Source: a phage. From it: a stretch of 56,589 bases of DNA. The position numbers were made by a program, and so were the translations under genes. Location: the sequence record PZ445422.1. One strand, 5' to 3'. Shown piece by piece: positions 6,897 through 56,589 of this stretch. The stretch's first letter is position 1. Each line of letters opens with the position of its first letter. The notes under the pieces are model-generated. The model made no database searches, was not told where the DNA came from, and saw nothing but the letters and a program-made list of their open reading frames with translations.

Positions 6897-8456
6897 TTAA
6901 ATACCGATAGTTTTGCCAACACCTGTATAAACAGCTTGATCCAGAACCATATAACGAACTTCATCACCCATATGGTCTTCACATTCCGTATCAACGTCGT
7001 CCTGATCTACTTCATCGCGAGGTAGACTTGGAACCAGCTCAAAGAAATAGTTGCAGTTATCAAAAATGTACATTGCTGGATTCTCGCGCGGACCGGGCAA
7101 AGGTTTACCGTTCGCATCTTCCCGCAGTGCAGCTTTAAGAAACTCACGCATTTTCTGCCAGCCCCGTTTACGTGACCCAGCAGACTTATCACTGCGCTTC
7201 CAATGTATACCGTTGTATAACTTCCCGTTAAGACGAATTTTCTTCGCCATTGTTGCAGCGGTGGAGTTATTGTTCTCCAGATCCCAAATGGAGTTATCCG
7301 CAGGACCAGGAACTACACGATCGTGTATACCCCAGGCCAATTCCCGCTCCAGTATACCGCTTGCAATTTCTGAGTCCAGCAAATGTAGACCTTCGTTTGT
7401 TTTACCGTTGGTCCCATACCATTCGTTAATCCTAAACAGGTCACCGCGGACCGTGGAGAATGTAGTGCCATCTTCACGCACAACATCCGAACCATCACTA
7501 ATAGCCCACCAACCGACAGAGAACGGTTTTGAAGAACCCCAGTCGAAAGAACGTGTAATCTTCCAACTCGCTGGAATCGGGAATGGTCGTACTTTGTGAA
7601 CAGTGCTACGCCACAGGTCATCGAACATACCACCGGATGTAATATCCCAGCTCCCGCCCAACCATGCAGCACGCTTGTTCGGGTCTGTGATAGACATAAG
7701 TTCTGCAATATATTTTGGACTTAGGTTTTTGTTTTCACGGTACGAACCAAAGATATGGCATTGCGTCGTAACCACATCTTCGTCTTTCTGCGTCCTCGGG
7801 TTAAACACTCGCGTAGTCTTCCTGAGTATTTTACCCATCGGTGCAGCGTCAATGAAGCGTTTCTTAACCCAGTTATGCCCCGCACCAAACGGGTTACTGG
7901 TAGCAAACACTTCAAGAGGGATATCCGGTAAATATGTGACCGTACCATCTGGATTGATAATTGGGTTATCTTCTGGTAAGAAAGATGAACGGTTACAGGA
8001 CATCATAGCTTCAAACAAACGCCCGTCCGGATATTTTGTTAATTCGTTCCATCCGATAAATGGGTATTCGTGACCGTGATAAGACCAGTAATCCTTTTCT
8101 TTACAAGCAACGCGGAACAATAGCTCTTCACCTGTAGGCCAAACCCATTTATAATCAGACTTAGAGCTAAGGAATTTAGCCCCGTCTTTAAATTCAGGAA
8201 ACCAGCGCTGGGATTTAGTTACAAGGTCATCAAGGTTTTTATATTCACGGTCGAATATAATGCCCTTCCAAAACTTACCGTACCCTACACCAACATTCTT
8301 ACGGAAACGCATAAGCTGGCAGTCCGTTTTTCCAGGACCGCGAGTTCCGTGGTATAGGATAATATCAGCGGGGCAGGATAGAGCGAGTGTCTGTGAACCT
8401 GGATGAGGTTTCCAGACGACTCGCAGCATGTTATCAGGTTGTCGGTTTAGCTCCAT
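6897..8456 (-). CDS. terminase large subunit
   Basis: 519 aa; Walker A-like GTRGPGKT near N-terminus and C-terminal nuclease-region pattern FATSNPFGAGHNWV; overlaps small terminase end. Confidence 0.8.
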   Translation of the reverse strand: MELNRQPDNMLRVVWKPHPGSQTLALSCPADIILYHGTRGPGKTDCQLMRFRKNVGVGYGKFWKGIIFDREYKNLDDLVTKSQRWFPEFKDGAKFLSSKSDYKWVWPTGEELLFRVACKEKDYWSYHGHEYPFIGWNELTKYPDGRLFEAMMSCNRSSFLPEDNPIINPDGTVTYLPDIPLEVFATSNPFGAGHNWVKKRFIDAAPMGKILRKTTRVFNPRTQKDEDVVTTQCHIFGSYRENKNLSPKYIAELMSITDPNKRAAWLGGSWDITSGGMFDDLWRSTVHKVRPFPIPASWKITRSFDWGSSKPFSVGWWAISDGSDVVREDGTTFSTVRGDLFRINEWYGTNGKTNEGLHLLDSEIASGILERELAWGIHDRVVPGPADNSIWDLENNNSTAATMAKKIRLNGKLYNGIHWKRSDKSAGSRKRGWQKMREFLKAALREDANGKPLPGPRENPAMYIFDNCNYFFELVPSLPRDEVDQDDVDTECEDHMGDEVRYMVLDQAVYTGVGKTIGI

Positions 8457-45792: not shown

Positions 45793-46966
<1,174 letters not shown>

Positions 46967-47036
46967 ATTTATTTGACTTACTCAACACAACAAGTATATT
47001 AAAATTGAACCTTGACAACAACACAAAGGAGTCCCG

Positions 47037-47270
47037 ATGAAATACGCTCTAATTATGCTGGCATTATGTTTATCCCTCACTGCATGTGGTAATGGTTTAA
47101 ATACTGGTAAACCTAATTCCGGCGTCATTCCAAAACCTTTGGATCGCGATGGTAACGGTTCTTTAATTTATGATACCGAAAAGCTTCCAATGACTGGGCA
47201 ATGGTGCCATGAAATTGATCACGAATACCGACGAATTGGCTCACCTTCAAACTGTGTGATTGATTATTGA
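47037..47270 (+). CDS. lipoprotein (candidate superinfection-exclusion factor)
   Basis: signal peptide with lipobox LSLTACG; 77 aa; opposite strand between tail fibre genes; followed by bidirectional terminator. Confidence 0.5.
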   Translation: MKYALIMLALCLSLTACGNGLNTGKPNSGVIPKPLDRDGNGSLIYDTEKLPMTGQWCHEIDHEYRRIGSPSNCVIDY

Positions 47271-47273
47271 AAA

Positions 47274-47300
47274 TTAACCCCTCAAACGAGGGGTTAATTA
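47274..47300. terminator. bidirectional intrinsic terminator
   Basis: ttaacccctc-aaac-gaggggttaa stem flanked by A/T tracts. Confidence 0.6.
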
Positions 47301-47304
47301 TTTA

Positions 47305-50300
47305 TTACGACCAACTACCAGTTCCGCGAGTCATTAATATTACAGACGGACGCAAGTAGCTTCCATAGACGTTCGTATACTCCTCCTTAACGCTTATTGT
47401 TACGCTCGACGCTGTCTTTCCTTTCACTGCTAAAGGTATGGTTACATCCATCGCAGGACCCTTAGCAGCTCGCTCAATCCTCCTTGTAATTGATGTCCCC
47501 CCTATGTTAGCAGTCACAATTATACGGCTTGCCTGATTTGATGTATATGCGGTTAAACTATAACTTAATAGCAACACAAAGTCTTTAGATAATGTTGAAC
47601 CGGATGAGTCTTTGAAAGTTTTTGTCCAGGTTCTTGAACTTGTAGTTTGTGTGTTTGGTATTGCAGACTCAGCAATGACACACATATTCGCAACATCACC
47701 CACAAAACTGGTAGCTTCCACAGTACCCTTGAATTTACCGCTTGTTGCGTTCACTGTGCCTGTGAAAGATCCGTTGCTAGCGTATACAGTACCTCTTATC
47801 GTTACGTTGTTAAACTGAGCGCTACCATTCTTGTTAATCATCCAACCCGCGCTATTGCTTGCGTAGTTTGTTGACTGAATTTGATTTGAAATTTTAGCGC
47901 TGTCAATAGTACCATTTTCAATAAACGCAGCCTTCATGAACACTTGACCGTTCTTAACAGCAAATGCTAGTTCTGCTACGCTATTTGTCGGGTTATAGAT
48001 AGCAAAGTTGTTAGCGCTTACCATGAAGTAAGACTGAACAGCTCCACCGGACCCTTCCATACCTAACTGGATACCAGCAACGTATTTTTGCCCTTTACTA
48101 TCTACCTGTACTTTAGCACCCCATTGAGCGTTAACATTACCTTCCAGATCTACAACTGCTTTACTTGTCTCCTGCACGGTCGCGCTAACCGTTTCAATAG
48201 TCTTACCTTGAGTGTCAATCAACTTACCCTGTGCATCGATGAGCTGTCCTTGTTCATTAATGGTAACGCCCTGATCCTGAACAACACCATCCAAAGTGAT
48301 AACGCTTTGTTGAACATTGCTAACGCTTTGACTTAAACGCTGTTCAGTTTCTACCACAGTTTGGCTAAGCTGAGTAACTCCATCTTTAACGCCTGTGATT
48401 TCAGTAGTAAGCTCTTTGTAAGTCTCCGTCTTCTTAAACTCAGAATCAATTTGTGGCATCAAATCTGTAGCTGTCGTAAAGCACAATGCAGCTACTTCTA
48501 CAAATGCGGAAGATCCGAAAGCGTTAATAGTGCGCACATACCAGTAATAAGTGTGGTCATTCTTCAAACCTTCCGAAGTCCAGGTTGTGCCCATACCTTT
48601 ACGAGTTGCTTCACGCTCAACAACGTCTGTAGACACGGAAGACAACCTTGTTTCACCGGACGTCCAGAAATCATATTGTGTGCTAACGTTCGCAATATCC
48701 GCAGATTTTGGGATCAAACTTATAGCAAAGTAACCCTGTTGTACTTCAACAGATGTTGGTGGTGGCGGAGCCTGAATATTAAATTGAAGATACGCTTCCG
48801 GCGATATTGCCCCGCTATAAGCTACCGCTTGAACATGCGCTGTATACGCGCCACGCAGCAGCCCAGTAACGCGAACGTTTTGGCCAGGGACTTGTGCGGT
48901 CCAAACCGTTGTACCTCCCTGTCGCACGGCTACGCGGTTATATGCCACCTGTCCAATATTACTCCACGTTAAAACACCCTGCACAACATCGCTGATCTGC
49001 AATATCTGATACTGAAGGTTTTGCGGTTGGGCAATAGCACCAGACGGAAGGTCTACCAGATCCGGGCGCTCCATTGGTTTACCAATAGCGTCGTCCCACA
49101 TTTCCAGGAAGTCTTGACGAAGGACAAGATTAATCCCACCTTTAGGATCGAATGACCATTTAGTAACGCGCATCTCAACGTTTTTCATTCCGATATTTGA
49201 AATGGTTACGTTGACATACATGCCGGGGCGGAATTTATACCCCTTCATGTTACACGGCACTTCAATTGTTCGACCAACACGCTTACGACGTAAAATAATA
49301 TTAGCAAGACGTTGAGCTTGATATTCACTTGTAACAAAGCGGAAATCCATGTCTTGCGTTATTTCACCGCCATCTTTTTCCACCCATTCCTTAACCACAA
49401 CTGGAGGGAAATCTGCTTCAGCGTATGTTTGCTTCGGGTCGACGAATGTACCTGTAATGGTATTGGTACGCTCTTTATAAGACGTCTCAGGGATTATTTT
49501 AATATCCCCAGCAATACAGCTTTCATCCAAAGTCATGGTAGCTGGGCCGTAATAAGCACCAACTAACAGACCATGCTTGCCGCCAATATAGGTAAGCTCC
49601 CCGCCGCAAGCTTCAAGCATAGCATCAAGGATTTTGGCAGGTGCTTCATCCACTTCAAACTCACCGTTAATGCGGTAGCGTCTTTCCGTAGTGTTATCTG
49701 CGTTAGTAACAAACTCATCGCAGATGTTAGCAGCTTCCTTGAATTGGTCCCAGTTAATATTCTCGTCCTTGCGCTTTAAATACGTGCGGAAATAATCAAG
49801 AATAACAAGAGCAGCGTTATCGCTAAAGACAGTTTGACCGGAACGTGGGTCATAGACTCTACGCCCCTTTTTCAACACCTTGACGTTTGGCAAACCAGAT
49901 GGGAATTTTTCAGCATCAAACTTTAAGCTTAAACGTAGCCATGCAATACCCTTGCCAATCATATCCTCCTTCCAGGAAGGACAATGTCTTAACATGAATG
50001 GGTCAACAGTCTGACGGTCGTTATGAAACTCCCAAGTAGCGTTTTCACCAAACCAATCAATTCCGTCATCACCCAACCAAATCGTTTCAATACCTTCCAA
50101 TTTATGACTAGCAAGAACAACAACAAGATGCATCCATTCACCTTCATCTTGATCTCCAGCTTCTTCCTCCGCAAATGCTAATAGTCCGGACGCTACGGTC
50201 GTGCCATATACAACAGAACGTGACGCTGTAGCTGCACGCAGGACCTGTTTACGTTCTTGCTGACCCTTGTAAGCATCAAAGTTCATATTTGGTGTCTTAG

Positions 50301-55124: not shown

Positions 55125-55929
55125 TATCTTCTCCTTTTTCTTCTACCTTTATTTTGATTTTGCATTTGACTTTCCATGAGTTTAGCATTTTGTTCAGCTT
55201 CTGACACGCGCTTTTCAAGCCATAGCTGCCGCAGTATTTCGCATTCGTACGGTTGAAGATGTAAGCCCATTGTCACTTGATAGCTGTGCAATTCTGTATA
55301 ACTAAAATCTCCTCCAGTGTAGATATCATCAAATAAAGTAGATAGATATTCGAAGCAAAGCGGTATTTCCTTTTCCCGATATTCTTTAAGCTTAGGTGGC
55401 GTCTTACCAGACTGTTCCTCAACCTTTTGCAGTTGCGATAATAAAGAAGATCCCCCGCCGGGGACTTTACTATTTAGTTCCCATTGGAGGATCTTCTTAT
55501 CAATTAACTGTCTGCGCGCTTTTAGAAAAAATTACTATCTTTAGCGGCAAATACGTTAAGGTCTTCTCGAACAGTTGGATTCTCCGTTAAGAACTCAAAC
55601 ACGTTGTCAACAGTTGGTGGCTCGTCAAACGTCCAACCTGCTACAAGATTACACAGTGAACGGGTAAGGATATCTTCCTTCATAGCATCCGTTACTTCCC
55701 CGTCTTTACCCTGCATAAGTGCCAACAGTTGACGTTGTGCTTTCAATTCTGCGTCACGATACTCTGTGCAGTAGCGACTACGAATGTAGAGTTTTTCGCC
55801 AGTGTCGCCTACACCAGGAATAACCACATTCATAGGCTTAGTGTTTGCCGGATCGTTAGCCCGGCTCACAGTTTTAAAATCACGGAAGCTTTTAGCTACT
55901 GCAACTTTGCCTTTTTTGGTGTCGGTCAT
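55124..55929 (-). CDS. tail assembly chaperone, -1 frameshift-extended isoform (G-T-like)
   Basis: my translation of the -1 frame after the slippery site is open for about 133 codons and ends at TAA overlapping the tape measure ATG (TAATG). Confidence 0.55.
55522..55929 (-). CDS. tail assembly chaperone (G-like, short isoform)
   Basis: 135 aa ORF between major tail protein and tape measure gene; ends ...KDSNFF at slippery site. Confidence 0.6.
   Translation of the reverse strand: MTDTKKGKVAVAKSFRDFKTVSRANDPANTKPMNVVIPGVGDTGEKLYIRSRYCTEYRDAELKAQRQLLALMQGKDGEVTDAMKEDILTRSLCNLVAGWTFDEPPTVDNVFEFLTENPTVREDLNVFAAKDSNFF
55525..55531 (-). promoter_or_regulatory. -1 programmed ribosomal frameshift slippery heptamer U UUU UUC
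   Basis: minus-strand TTTTTTC in X XXY YYZ phase, 1 codon before the chaperone stop. Confidence 0.55.
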
Positions 55930-55938
55930 TTCTTATCC

Positions 55939-56589
55939 TTATTCTGTCGCTAAAACGCGGGTAATTTTGATGGAACTTGCGGTTGTTGGGTCCAGCAATC
56001 CGCGGTAGCCCATATTAAGCATGATATCACCTTCACCGTCAATAGGACGCGGAGCTTCAGTGAATTTCACGCGAGGGATTTCCACTGTGTATTTCTGTTC
56101 CGGATTGGTCGGGTCAATCAGATCAAACTTGATTGAAGTTTCCACTTCATTCAGATACTTCATACGCAGCTTGTTATCCAGGAAGTACACGTTAGCTGTA
56201 CCAGTTACCGCACGACGACCAGCGGACGGTTCAATGGAGAACTTAGAACCAACAACAAAGCGCGGCGCAATATCGTTTTCAACGGTAAGACCGATTTCCG
56301 TAATAACGCTGATTTCTTCGTTGTTTTCCAGCAAGCGACCGGAGAAACCATCCATCGGTGAAGTAGTCGTACGGTCTTTGATAGTTGCACCAGATGGGAG
56401 CGATTCCGCAATTTCCATCGAGCGACCAACAATACCGAATTCCACTGTGGTCATGTTTTCCGCAGACAATGAGAAAGTCATGCTATTAACTTCGCAACCG
56501 CGATAAATTGTATATTTACCTGACGGCAGATCTGCGTTATAGTCTACGAAAGTAAATGACTGACGGACAATACCGCCTTTAAGGACGTT
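55939..56589 (-). CDS. major tail (tube) protein, C-terminal part; ORF enters from beyond the window end
   Basis: reading frame open from 56589 (no stop upstream of the annotated Met at 56481); in phase with the ORF fragment 1..273. Confidence 0.5.
   Translation of the reverse strand, partial: NVLKGGIVRQSFTFVDYNADLPSGKYTIYRGCEVNSMTFSLSAENMTTVEFGIVGRSMEIAESLPSGATIKDRTTTSPMDGFSGRLLENNEEISVITEIGLTVENDIAPRFVVGSKFSIEPSAGRRAVTGTANVYFLDNKLRMKYLNEVETSIKFDLIDPTNPEQKYTVEIPRVKFTEAPRPIDGEGDIMLNMGYRGLLDPTTASSIKITRVLATE

What the first reader, a model, noticed from the sequence alone, without database searches (positions are those of the whole stretch)
47037..47270. Lipoprotein gene on the opposite strand between tail fibre genes, candidate superinfection-exclusion factor
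It is the only plus-strand ORF in the tail block. It has a signal peptide with a lipobox (LTACG), then a short mature domain, and is flanked by a bidirectional terminator. The location next to receptor-binding genes matches that of known phage lipoproteins that block the phage's own receptor.
Basis: partly seen in the sequence, partly recalled or inferred. Interest (0 to 1): 0.5.

Follow-up and report, generated by a model that had tools for sequence, protein, structure and literature searches.

The report
Phage lipoprotein that blocks the LamB receptor
This is a real, strongly conserved small lipoprotein gene of coliphage GottfriedDienst (Bas21) that most likely disables the phage's own receptor, the maltoporin LamB; the idea is already published for near-identical genes and tested for a relative, so the finding is correct but not new.

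Summary
The window is the reverse complement of Escherichia phage GottfriedDienst (Bas21, Seuratvirus). The ORF at 47037-47270 (+) is bas21_0021. It encodes a 77-aa prolipoprotein with lipobox LTAC and Cys17. It has its own sigma-70-like promoter, a strong Shine-Dalgarno sequence and a terminator hairpin shared with the convergent J gene. It is the only opposite-strand gene in the 28-gene structural block.

The gene is under strong purifying selection (dN/dS about 0.1-0.2). It belongs to a very narrow enterobacterial phage family, PHROG 12984. It is 54% identical (E=3e-32) to Lpp010 (gp116) of temperate phage mEp010. Plasmid expression of Lpp010 excluded the LamB-dependent phages mEp010, mEp044, mEp554 and lambda.

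Bas21 uses LamB. Among the 25 small BASEL siphoviruses, exactly the four LamB users carry this gene. Its position convergent with J is conserved in six phage lineages.

The mature domain shows no detectable relation to Llp, Cor or Rtp45, so it is an analogue rather than a member of those families.

A 2022 paper already called the Bas23 orthologue a likely exclusion lipoprotein. How a lipoprotein disables LamB remains unsolved.

The parts
46973..47000 (+). Sigma-70-like promoter: -35 TTGACT (46973-46978), 16-nt spacer, -10 TATATT (46995-47000)
   Evidence: The consensus scan scores it 10 of 12. The -10 hexamer and spacer are conserved in Seurat, Bas22, 9g and a lambdoid prophage; the 70-nt intergenic region is 62-70 of 70 identical. 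Function is not tested.
47026..47031 (+). Shine-Dalgarno AAGGAG, 5 nt upstream of the ATG
   Evidence: Read directly from the sequence. Conserved in the homologues.
47037..47084 (+). Signal peptide, residues 1-16 (MKYALIMLALCLSLTA), ending in the lipobox L-T-A before Cys17
47085..47270 (+). Mature lipoprotein, Cys17 to Tyr77 plus the stop codon. It has an N-terminal Gly/Asn-rich tether (CGNGLNTGK), then a conserved core with PNSGV, DTEKLPMTGQWC and two invariant Cys (C57, C73).
   Evidence: Alignment of 27 homologues. The core, residues 25-77, is identical in amino acids between Bas21 and Bas22 although pS=0.55. 54% identical to Lpp010.
47272..47299 (.). Terminator hairpin shared by the convergent lipoprotein and J genes
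   Evidence: A hairpin with a different sequence lies at the same place in Bas22, mEp010 and AS5. Annotated as bidirectional in phage Seurat.
47305..50427 (-). J-like tail tip protein (bas21_0020). Its C-terminal part (about 47305-47700) is the presumed LamB-binding domain.
   Evidence: PHROG 31 'central tail fiber J', E=5.9e-184. The C-terminal 300 aa are 37% identical to the J proteins of mEp010 and of a lambdoid prophage, and 27% identical to lambda J. In the LptD-using phage VogelGryff, J is shorter (883-aa ORF against 1044 aa) and its C-terminal sequence differs after the shared FNNVT(V/I)RGTV motif.
46896..47304 (.). Mobile cassette: the first ~60 nt of the lateral tail fibre gene, the promoter, the lipoprotein gene and the terminator
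   Evidence: A discrete 409-bp island 88% identical to lambdoid E. coli prophages. It ends exactly at the J stop codon, and the adjacent J 3' end (47305-47682) cannot be aligned. GC is 39.7% against 44.7% for the genome.
46373..46954 (-). N-terminal fragment of the lateral tail fibre gene (bas21_0022), the upstream divergent neighbour

Best explanation
bas21_0021 encodes a small outer-membrane lipoprotein that inactivates LamB (maltoporin), the terminal receptor of this phage.

Proposed steps:
1. Host RNA polymerase transcribes the gene from its own sigma-70-type promoter, independently of the oppositely oriented late tail operon. This is inferred.
2. The precursor is exported, lipidated at Cys17 and cleaved by signal peptidase II. 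Because residue +2 is Gly, the Lol pathway sorts it to the inner leaflet of the outer membrane. This is inferred from the sequence and from established lipoprotein sorting rules.
3. The roughly 50-residue core hangs on a flexible Gly/Asn tether and is probably stapled by a C57-C73 disulfide. It binds the periplasmic or lumenal side of LamB and fixes or displaces surface loops, so that J-type receptor-binding domains can no longer bind or trigger. This is inferred by analogy with Llp-FhuA and Rtp45-LptD.
4. For a virulent phage the pay-off is that progeny are not wasted on infected cells or on LamB-bearing lysis debris. In prophages that carry the same cassette, it protects the lysogen from lambda-like phages.

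Shown here: the gene is real, it is a lipoprotein family under strong constraint, it is homologous to an experimentally verified excluder of LamB-dependent phages, it is associated with LamB use, and its position next to J is conserved.

Not shown: expression timing, cellular location, direct binding to LamB, and whether adsorption or DNA ejection is the step blocked.
For: Homology to Lpp010 (mEp010 gp116): 54% identity, E=3e-32, with the same position between J and the tail fibre gene. Lpp010 excluded mEp010, mEp044, mEp554 and lambda, whereas the unrelated lipoprotein Lpp021 excluded only the OmpA-dependent phages (PMC11893012).

mEp013 is also LamB-dependent and still plated on Lpp010-expressing cells. 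This implies that LamB is still present and usable, so it is modified rather than removed.

Bas21 uses LamB. The gene is present in 4 of 4 LamB-using and 0 of 21 other small BASEL siphoviruses.

The core of the protein is identical between Bas21 and Bas22 although synonymous sites are half saturated, whereas the last ~150 residues of their J proteins are only about 25% identical. The constraint therefore comes from something invariant such as the host protein, not from the phage's binding domain.

Lipobox, a +2 residue that is not Asp, and two invariant Cys in the mature part. Own promoter, SD and terminator.

Convergent-with-J synteny in Seuratvirus, Nonagvirus, Dhillonvirus, a Drexlerviridae phage of Enterobacter, mEpimmI phages and lambdoid prophages. 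In 28 of 31 IMG/VR loci a long J-sized frame ends about 30 nt after the lipoprotein stop.

The same layout holds for cor in T1 and rtp45 in Rtp. The Rtp45 structure shows a periplasmic exclusion lipoprotein acting on a receptor that is not a TonB-dependent transporter (PMC12685063).
Against: There is no experiment on this phage's copy. The verified homologue is only 54% identical, and only spot assays were done with it, so adsorption was not measured.

LamB has no plug and no known allostery (noted in PMC9586334), so the Llp mechanism cannot simply be transferred.

The AlphaFold2 model is of low confidence (pLDDT 62.6) and gives no structural support.

The escape of mEp013 shows that exclusion is not absolute for all phages that use LamB.

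The promoter is only a consensus match.
Confidence: 0.75

Rival explanations
1. The lipoprotein acts on the incoming phage rather than on LamB. It would bind the tail tip or the tape-measure protein in the periplasm and block DNA ejection after normal adsorption, as described for the lipoprotein Ltp of Streptococcus phage TP-J34 (from my own knowledge).
For: Lpp010 failed to exclude the LamB-dependent phage mEp013, which the authors attribute to variation in J. Only plating was measured, not adsorption.
Against: Lpp010 excludes lambda, a phage unrelated to mEp010 outside the tail tip. The lipoprotein core is invariant while the J receptor-binding ends diverge to about 25% identity. Presence of the gene tracks the receptor type across six unrelated phage backbones.
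Confidence: 0.12
2. The lipoprotein is flipped to the cell surface and masks the outer face of LamB directly.
For: PMC9586334 raised this as a possibility for LptD and LamB exclusion lipoproteins. Surface exposure of some E. coli lipoproteins is reported.
Against: For both solved cases, Llp-FhuA and Rtp45-LptDE, the lipoprotein is periplasmic. A family variant appears to carry an ordinary signal-peptidase-I site instead of a lipobox, which would give a soluble periplasmic protein. No surface-export signal is evident.
Confidence: 0.08
3. It is a moron with a host-directed function unrelated to phage exclusion, for example an envelope or fitness factor like lambda Bor or Lom.
For: It has moron-like anatomy: its own promoter and terminator, lower GC, and a discrete island shared with prophages.
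Against: It is kept under strong purifying selection in strictly virulent phages. It associates perfectly with LamB use. A homologue has a demonstrated exclusion phenotype.
Confidence: 0.04
4. It is the outer-membrane spanin (Rz1-like) of the lysis system, or simply a chance ORF.
For: It is a small outer-membrane-type lipoprotein, as o-spanins are.
Against: Bas21 has a complete lysis cassette with endolysin, holin, i-spanin and o-spanin at the other end of the genome. There is no i-spanin partner next to this gene. dN/dS of 0.1-0.2 and 19 invariant residues rule out a chance ORF.
Confidence: 0.01

Closest known systems
Lpp010 (gp116, type-C lipoprotein) of temperate coliphage mEp010 and its mEpimmI relatives (PMC11893012)
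   Same: A true homologue: 54% identity over the whole protein, E=3e-32. It shares the lipobox, the PNSGVIP and DTEKLP.TGQWCHE motifs and two mature Cys. Its position is the same, convergent with J and followed by a terminator hairpin. Both phages use LamB.
   Different: The host phage is temperate and unrelated to Queuovirinae. The tether after the Cys differs (AVDKEAALHNL against GNGLNTGK). Its J is 1707 aa, with only 37% identity in the C-terminal 310 aa. Exclusion was shown for Lpp010, not for the Bas21 protein.
Rtp45 of phage Rtp, the exclusion lipoprotein for LptD (PDB 9RPS; PMC12685063)
   Same: A precursor lipoprotein of about 76 aa with a disulfide. It is encoded convergent with the J gene. 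Its target is an outer-membrane beta-barrel that is not a TonB-dependent transporter. It is the best mechanistic precedent: periplasmic binding that physically displaces surface loops.
   Different: A different receptor. There is no convincing sequence relation: hhalign probability is 72%, carried by the signal peptide, and the Cys residues do not align. rtp45 is co-transcribed with a separate receptor-binding gene, rtp44, whereas in Bas21 the binding domain is the C-terminus of J itself.
Llp of phage T5, which blocks FhuA
   Same: The precursor is the same size (77 aa). It is an outer-membrane lipoprotein with an intramolecular disulfide, has its own promoter and lies next to the receptor-binding gene. 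It disables the phage's own receptor from the periplasm.
   Different: Only the signal peptide aligns. Llp acts through the plug-based allostery of a TonB-dependent transporter, and LamB has no plug. llp is divergent from oad, not convergent with it.
Cor of T1, phi80, N15 and HK022, which excludes FhuA-dependent phages
   Same: A small lipoprotein of about 75 aa. In T1 it is encoded on the strand opposite to the tail tip genes and ends at a shared terminator.
   Different: Only the signal peptide aligns. The receptor is FhuA, not LamB.

Membership tests
Lpp010-type lipoproteins that exclude LamB-dependent phages (PHROG 12984) | Full-length sequence homology to the family | tested here: met
   PHROG 12984 matches at E=7.5e-57 over residues 1-77 of 77. 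BLASTP against mEp010 gp116 gives 54% identity, E=3e-32.
Lpp010-type lipoproteins that exclude LamB-dependent phages (PHROG 12984) | Signal peptide with a lipobox Cys, and two further conserved Cys in the mature part | tested here: met
   C17, C57 and C73 are invariant in 27 sequences. The lipobox pattern is met in 25 of 27.
Lpp010-type lipoproteins that exclude LamB-dependent phages (PHROG 12984) | Gene lies immediately downstream of the J tail tip gene and convergent with it | tested here: met
   28 of 31 IMG/VR loci
Lpp010-type lipoproteins that exclude LamB-dependent phages (PHROG 12984) | The carrier phage uses LamB as terminal receptor | tested here: met
   From published experiments, not repeated here. 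Bas21-24 use LamB (BASEL S5 table). The mEp010 group uses LamB.
Lpp010-type lipoproteins that exclude LamB-dependent phages (PHROG 12984) | Expression excludes LamB-dependent phages | not testable with these tools
   Shown only for Lpp010. It needs a plating and adsorption assay with bas21_0021.
Bacterial lipoprotein (signal peptidase II substrate) | n-region with Lys or Arg, hydrophobic h-region, and [LVI][ASTVI][GAS]C within the first ~35 residues | tested here: met
   K2, then YALIMLALCLSL, then L-T-A-C17. Weak matches to the LptM signal-peptide models involve the signal peptide only.
Cor family (T1, phi80, N15) | Sequence similarity of the mature domain | tested here: not met
   hhalign aligns only residues 1-21, the signal peptide.
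Llp (T5) | Sequence similarity of the mature domain | tested here: not met
   hhalign aligns only residues 1-21, with probability 58%. No match to any PDB sequence.
Rtp45-type exclusion lipoproteins for LptD | Sequence similarity of the mature domain, including the Cys pair | tested here: inconclusive
   hhalign probability is 72% with a gapped alignment in which the conserved Cys do not correspond. No PDB sequence hit to 9RPS. The structure model is too poor for a fold comparison.
o-spanin (Rz1-like) | Located in the lysis cassette with an i-spanin partner | tested here: not met
   The lysis cassette, with its own i-spanin and o-spanin, is at record positions 55131-56569, about 37 kb away.

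The most novel reading that the evidence does not exclude
This family disables the trimeric, plug-less maltoporin by a third mechanism. That mechanism would differ both from Llp (allostery through the plug of a TonB-dependent transporter) and from Rtp45 (wedging beside the LptD barrel). One possibility is that the extended, disulfide-stapled core threads into the LamB channel from the periplasm. That would also shut maltodextrin uptake and would explain why every residue of the core is frozen. The lipid anchor might even be dispensable, as the variant with an ordinary signal peptide suggests.
Probability: 0.3. Interest if true: 0.55.

Novelty: already known. Interest (0 to 1): 0.22.

Why it matters
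The gene explains how a LamB-using virulent phage can avoid losing progeny to infected cells and debris. In prophages that carry the same cassette, it explains how lysogens can become resistant to lambda-like phages.

It matters practically for phage cocktails: phages that share LamB would interfere with one another.

It also matters for the one question still open, raised in PMC9586334: how can a small periplasmic lipoprotein switch off a porin that has neither a plug nor known allostery? Two results from this analysis go slightly beyond the literature I could read. First, the BASEL LamB-type lipoproteins are homologous to the experimentally validated Lpp010. Second, the protein core is frozen while the J binding domain next to it diverges freely. 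Together they give a well-defined and very conserved candidate for a LamB co-structure.

Tried and rejected
Pfam and NCBIfam gave only sub-threshold matches to LptM-type signal peptides and no domain.

A PDB sequence search with the family profile found nothing meaningful.

AlphaFold2 with a 26-sequence alignment gave pLDDT 62.6 and pTM 0.38. This is too poor to use, so I did not run any fold search.

Profile comparisons with Rtp45, Cor and Llp aligned essentially only the signal peptides.

An exhaustive profile search of 1.84 billion representatives found only three family clusters. It also found a weak repeat match (E=1.6e-7 over 9 repeats) in a 4467-aa adhesin-like protein, which I regard as a short-motif coincidence.

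An Rfam scan of 46500-47800 gave one hit far below threshold (RefA5, 24.7 bits against a gathering score of 91), which I take as chance.

The 9g genome paper does not discuss the gene. The Avs2 paper, which mentions both Seuratvirus and lipoproteins, is irrelevant.

No paper in the library reports a LamB-lipoprotein structure.

The spanin idea was rejected after the real o-spanin was found.

Full report
IDENTITY OF THE WINDOW. The 2.5 kb around the finding matches Escherichia phage GottfriedDienst (Bas21 of the BASEL collection, MZ501071, 56,589 bp, Seuratvirus, Queuovirinae) at 100% identity on the reverse strand. The record length equals the window length. The ORF at 47037-47270 (+) is the annotated CDS bas21_0021, 'hypothetical protein'. 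Its orthologue in phage Seurat is annotated 'putative lipoprotein', followed by a 'bidirectional terminator between end of gene and end of apparent moron'.

The ORF starts with ATG and encodes 77 residues, MKYALIMLALCLSLTACGNGLNTGKPNSGVIPKPLDRDGNGSLIYDTEKLPMTGQWCHEIDHEYRRIGSPSNCVIDY.
- Residues 14-17 (LTAC) form a canonical lipobox after a Lys-containing n-region and a hydrophobic core.
- The residue after the Cys is Gly. Under established Lol sorting rules this predicts an outer-membrane location.
- A promoter-like site TTGACT-16 nt-TATATT lies at 46973-47000 (10 of 12 matches).
- AAGGAG lies at 47026-47031, 5 nt before the ATG.
- A 12-bp stem hairpin at 47272-47299 fills the 34-nt gap to the stop codon of the convergent J gene. 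It folds well on both strands: -18.2 kcal/mol (z = -5.2) and -17.6 kcal/mol (z = -4.4). Only the + strand passes the scan's T-run rule.
- The gene is the only one on its strand among bas21_0001 to 0028, the entire 21-kb packaging, head and tail block.

IT IS A REAL GENE UNDER STRONG CONSTRAINT. PHROG 12984 ('lipoprotein') matches end to end at E=7.5e-57. Pairwise dN/dS against seven homologues is 0.09-0.2. In an alignment of 27 homologues, 19 positions are invariant. These include the lipobox Cys17, the motif PNSGV (26-30), GQWC (54-57) and Cys73, so the mature protein has two invariant cysteines, presumably forming a periplasmic disulfide.

The family is very small. It has 29 clusters at 90% identity among 5.8 billion proteins and three clusters at 50% identity among 1.84 billion representatives. 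Every named member comes from an enterobacterial phage or prophage; most carry no source name.

WHAT IT IS RELATED TO. A tblastn search of 50,697 phage records found 44 full-length copies:
- Seuratviruses, including CAjan at 100% identity, Seurat, Greed, and Bas22, Bas23 and Bas24
- Nonagvirus 9g (91%)
- Dhillonviruses: EP23, PNS1, Maverick, CS16 and HH3 (74-77%)
- the Enterobacter Drexlerviridae phage AS5 (56%)
- the temperate 'mEpimmI' coliphages mEp010, mEp013, mEp044 and mEp554 (53-54%, E about 3e-22)

The mEp010 hit is CDS mEp010_116. This is gp116, called 'Lpp010' by Front Microbiol 2025 (PMC11893012). The authors cloned that gene under Ptac and showed in spot assays that it excludes the LamB-dependent phages mEp010, mEp044, mEp554 and lambda. 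It did not exclude the LamB-dependent phage mEp013. A different lipoprotein, Lpp021, excluded only OmpA-dependent phages. BLASTP of the Bas21 protein against Lpp010 gives 54% identity, E=3e-32, over the whole length.

LINK TO THE RECEPTOR. The BASEL S5 table gives LamB as the terminal receptor of Bas21, Bas22, Bas23 and Bas24. The other 21 small siphoviruses (Bas01-20 and Bas25) use LptD, FhuA, BtuB, TolC or YncD. Exactly the four LamB users appear among the tblastn hits, and none of the other 21 does. If the phages were independent, this 4-of-4 against 0-of-21 split would have a probability of 1 in 12,650. They are not independent, since all four are Seuratviruses. However, the fifth Seuratvirus, Bas25 (LptD), lacks the gene. 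At the same place it has a shorter J (883 aa) followed by a convergent 333-aa ORF.

In Bas21, J carries a C-terminal extension. It is homologous to the C-termini of J from mEp010 and from a lambdoid prophage (37% identity over about 300 aa) and more weakly to lambda J (27%). This fits a receptor-binding domain that is part of J itself, as in lambda.

CONSERVED ANATOMY ACROSS PHAGE LINEAGES. In Bas22, 9g, EP23, AS5, mEp010 and lambdoid E. coli prophages, the gene always lies immediately after the J stop codon and convergent with it, with a hairpin in between. The hairpin sequences differ (AACCCCTC/GAGGGGTT, CCCCGC/GCGGGG, GGCTCCC/GGGAGCC) while the structure is kept. In 28 of 31 IMG/VR loci, a frame of 790 to more than 1,650 codons on the opposite strand ends about 30 nt after the lipoprotein stop.

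The known exclusion genes cor of T1 and rtp45 of Rtp are arranged in the same way relative to their J genes. llp of T5 lies next to the receptor-binding gene oad and has its own promoter.

A MOBILE CASSETTE AND A TELLING ASYMMETRY. Between Bas21 and lambdoid prophages there is a discrete 409-bp island of 88% DNA identity at window 46896-47304. It runs from the first ~60 nt of the lateral tail fibre gene through the promoter, the lipoprotein gene and the terminator, and it stops exactly at the J stop codon. The adjoining 3' end of J (47305-47682) cannot be aligned. The gene's GC content is 39.7%, against 44.7% for the genome.

Between Bas21 and Bas22, residues 25-77 of the lipoprotein are identical in amino acids, although more than half of the synonymous sites differ (pS=0.55). 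The last ~150 aligned positions of their J proteins are only about 25% identical. The lipoprotein is therefore held constant by something that does not vary, most simply the host protein LamB, and not by the phage's own binding domain. This agrees with Lpp010 excluding lambda. Because mEp013 still infects Lpp010-expressing cells through LamB, the receptor must remain in the membrane. It is altered rather than removed (inference).

MOST LIKELY MECHANISM. The protein is an outer-membrane lipoprotein made from its own promoter. It is tethered by a flexible CGNGLNTGK linker to the inner leaflet of the outer membrane. Its small disulfide-stapled core binds LamB from the periplasmic or lumenal side and makes the surface loops unusable for J-type binding domains.

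The closest mechanistic precedent is Rtp45. The cryo-EM structure shows Rtp45 bound at the periplasmic rim of LptD, pushing extracellular loop 4 outward by up to 20 Å. This is a steric mechanism, not an allosteric one (PMC12685063). For T5 Llp the effect is allosteric through FhuA (PMC9586334). Location, binding and the step blocked are inferred for the Bas21 protein and have not been shown.

MEMBERSHIP. The protein is a member of the Lpp010 / PHROG 12984 family. It is not a detectable member of the Cor, Llp or Rtp45 families:
- Profile comparisons with Cor and Llp align only the signal peptides.
- The Rtp45 alignment has 72% probability, is gapped, and does not align the cysteines.
- No PDB sequence matches.
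- The AlphaFold2 model is too uncertain (pLDDT 62.6) for a fold comparison, so none was run.
- It is not the o-spanin. Bas21 has endolysin, holin, i-spanin and o-spanin genes at the other genome end.

NOVELTY. [quoted passage not shown] van den Berg et al. 2022 wrote that phages targeting LamB '(e.g., Bas23)' 'likely do have SE lipoproteins', and asked how these could work on a receptor without allostery (PMC9586334). The Bas23 protein is 97% identical to the one studied here. A homologue has since been tested (PMC11893012).

What remains open is the structural mechanism on LamB; I found no such structure in the searchable library. The mEpimmI passages I read do not mention the BASEL phages, so the homology between Lpp010 and the BASEL LamB-type lipoproteins may not have been pointed out.

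VERDICT. The kind of element is already known. Interest is low to moderate, at 0.22.

Noticed in passing
window 45793-46966 (- strand): The lateral tail fibre gene of Bas21 looks like a pseudogene. Compared with the intact 973-aa fibre of phage Greed (97% DNA identity), there is a 1-nt A insertion near 46383 that shifts the frame after about residue 192. The distal ~1.8 kb is deleted at about 45842. The annotation shows three fragments (197, 36 and 113 aa). This resembles the stf frameshift of laboratory lambda PaPa and fits isolation on rough K-12. A sequencing error at the A-run cannot be excluded, but the deletion is real.
   Followed up: partly
L047:3020-3238 and L048 (IMG/VR contigs); protein P0027: One subgroup of the family has no lipobox but a signal-peptidase-I-like site (…NAFA|NTNEPNSGVIP…). 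It would be a soluble periplasmic form. It is not next to a J gene and lies about 3 kb upstream of terminase genes.
   Followed up: partly
L006-L008 at 8001-8225 and L030; protein P0020: In several lambdoid E. coli prophages integrated beside dusA/pspG, the lipoprotein gene is frameshifted after residue ~54, giving …TGSGVTRLITNTDESVALLTVL. These copies are probably inactive.
   Followed up: no
window 46896-47304 compared with L007, L021, L023, L024: A sharply bounded 409-bp island (lipoprotein gene with promoter, terminator and the first ~60 nt of the fibre gene) is 88% identical between this virulent phage and temperate lambdoid prophages. The neighbouring J 3' end cannot be aligned, which indicates exchange of the cassette on its own.
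   Followed up: partly
window 47037-47270 and 47305-47750 compared with L010 (Bas22): The lipoprotein core (residues 25-77) is identical in Bas21 and Bas22 despite pS=0.55, whereas the C-terminal ~150 residues of J are only about 25% identical. The exclusion protein is frozen while the binding domain next to it diverges.
   Followed up: yes
L005:3828-4829 (phage VogelGryff, Bas25): In the LptD-using Seuratvirus, the slot after J holds a convergent 333-aa ORF, presumably the separate receptor-binding protein. No lipoprotein ORF of 40 aa or more was seen between it and the fibre gene.
   Followed up: no
L045 and L046 (IMG/VR), lipoprotein C-terminus: Two mEp010-like copies read …SPSNRVANY. The invariant second cysteine (C73 in Bas21 numbering) is replaced by Arg.
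   Followed up: no
protein P0031 (4467 aa, from the representative library): The family profile (positions 32-63) weakly matches nine repeats of a giant adhesin-like protein, with the motif D-x-N-G-D-I-T…P-G-E-G-T-W (E=1.6e-7). It is probably a short hairpin-motif resemblance rather than homology.
   Followed up: no
window 46626-46698 (+): A sub-threshold Rfam match to Enterococcus sRNA RefA5 (24.7 bits against a gathering score of 91, E=0.028) lies inside the fibre gene. I regard it as chance.
   Followed up: no
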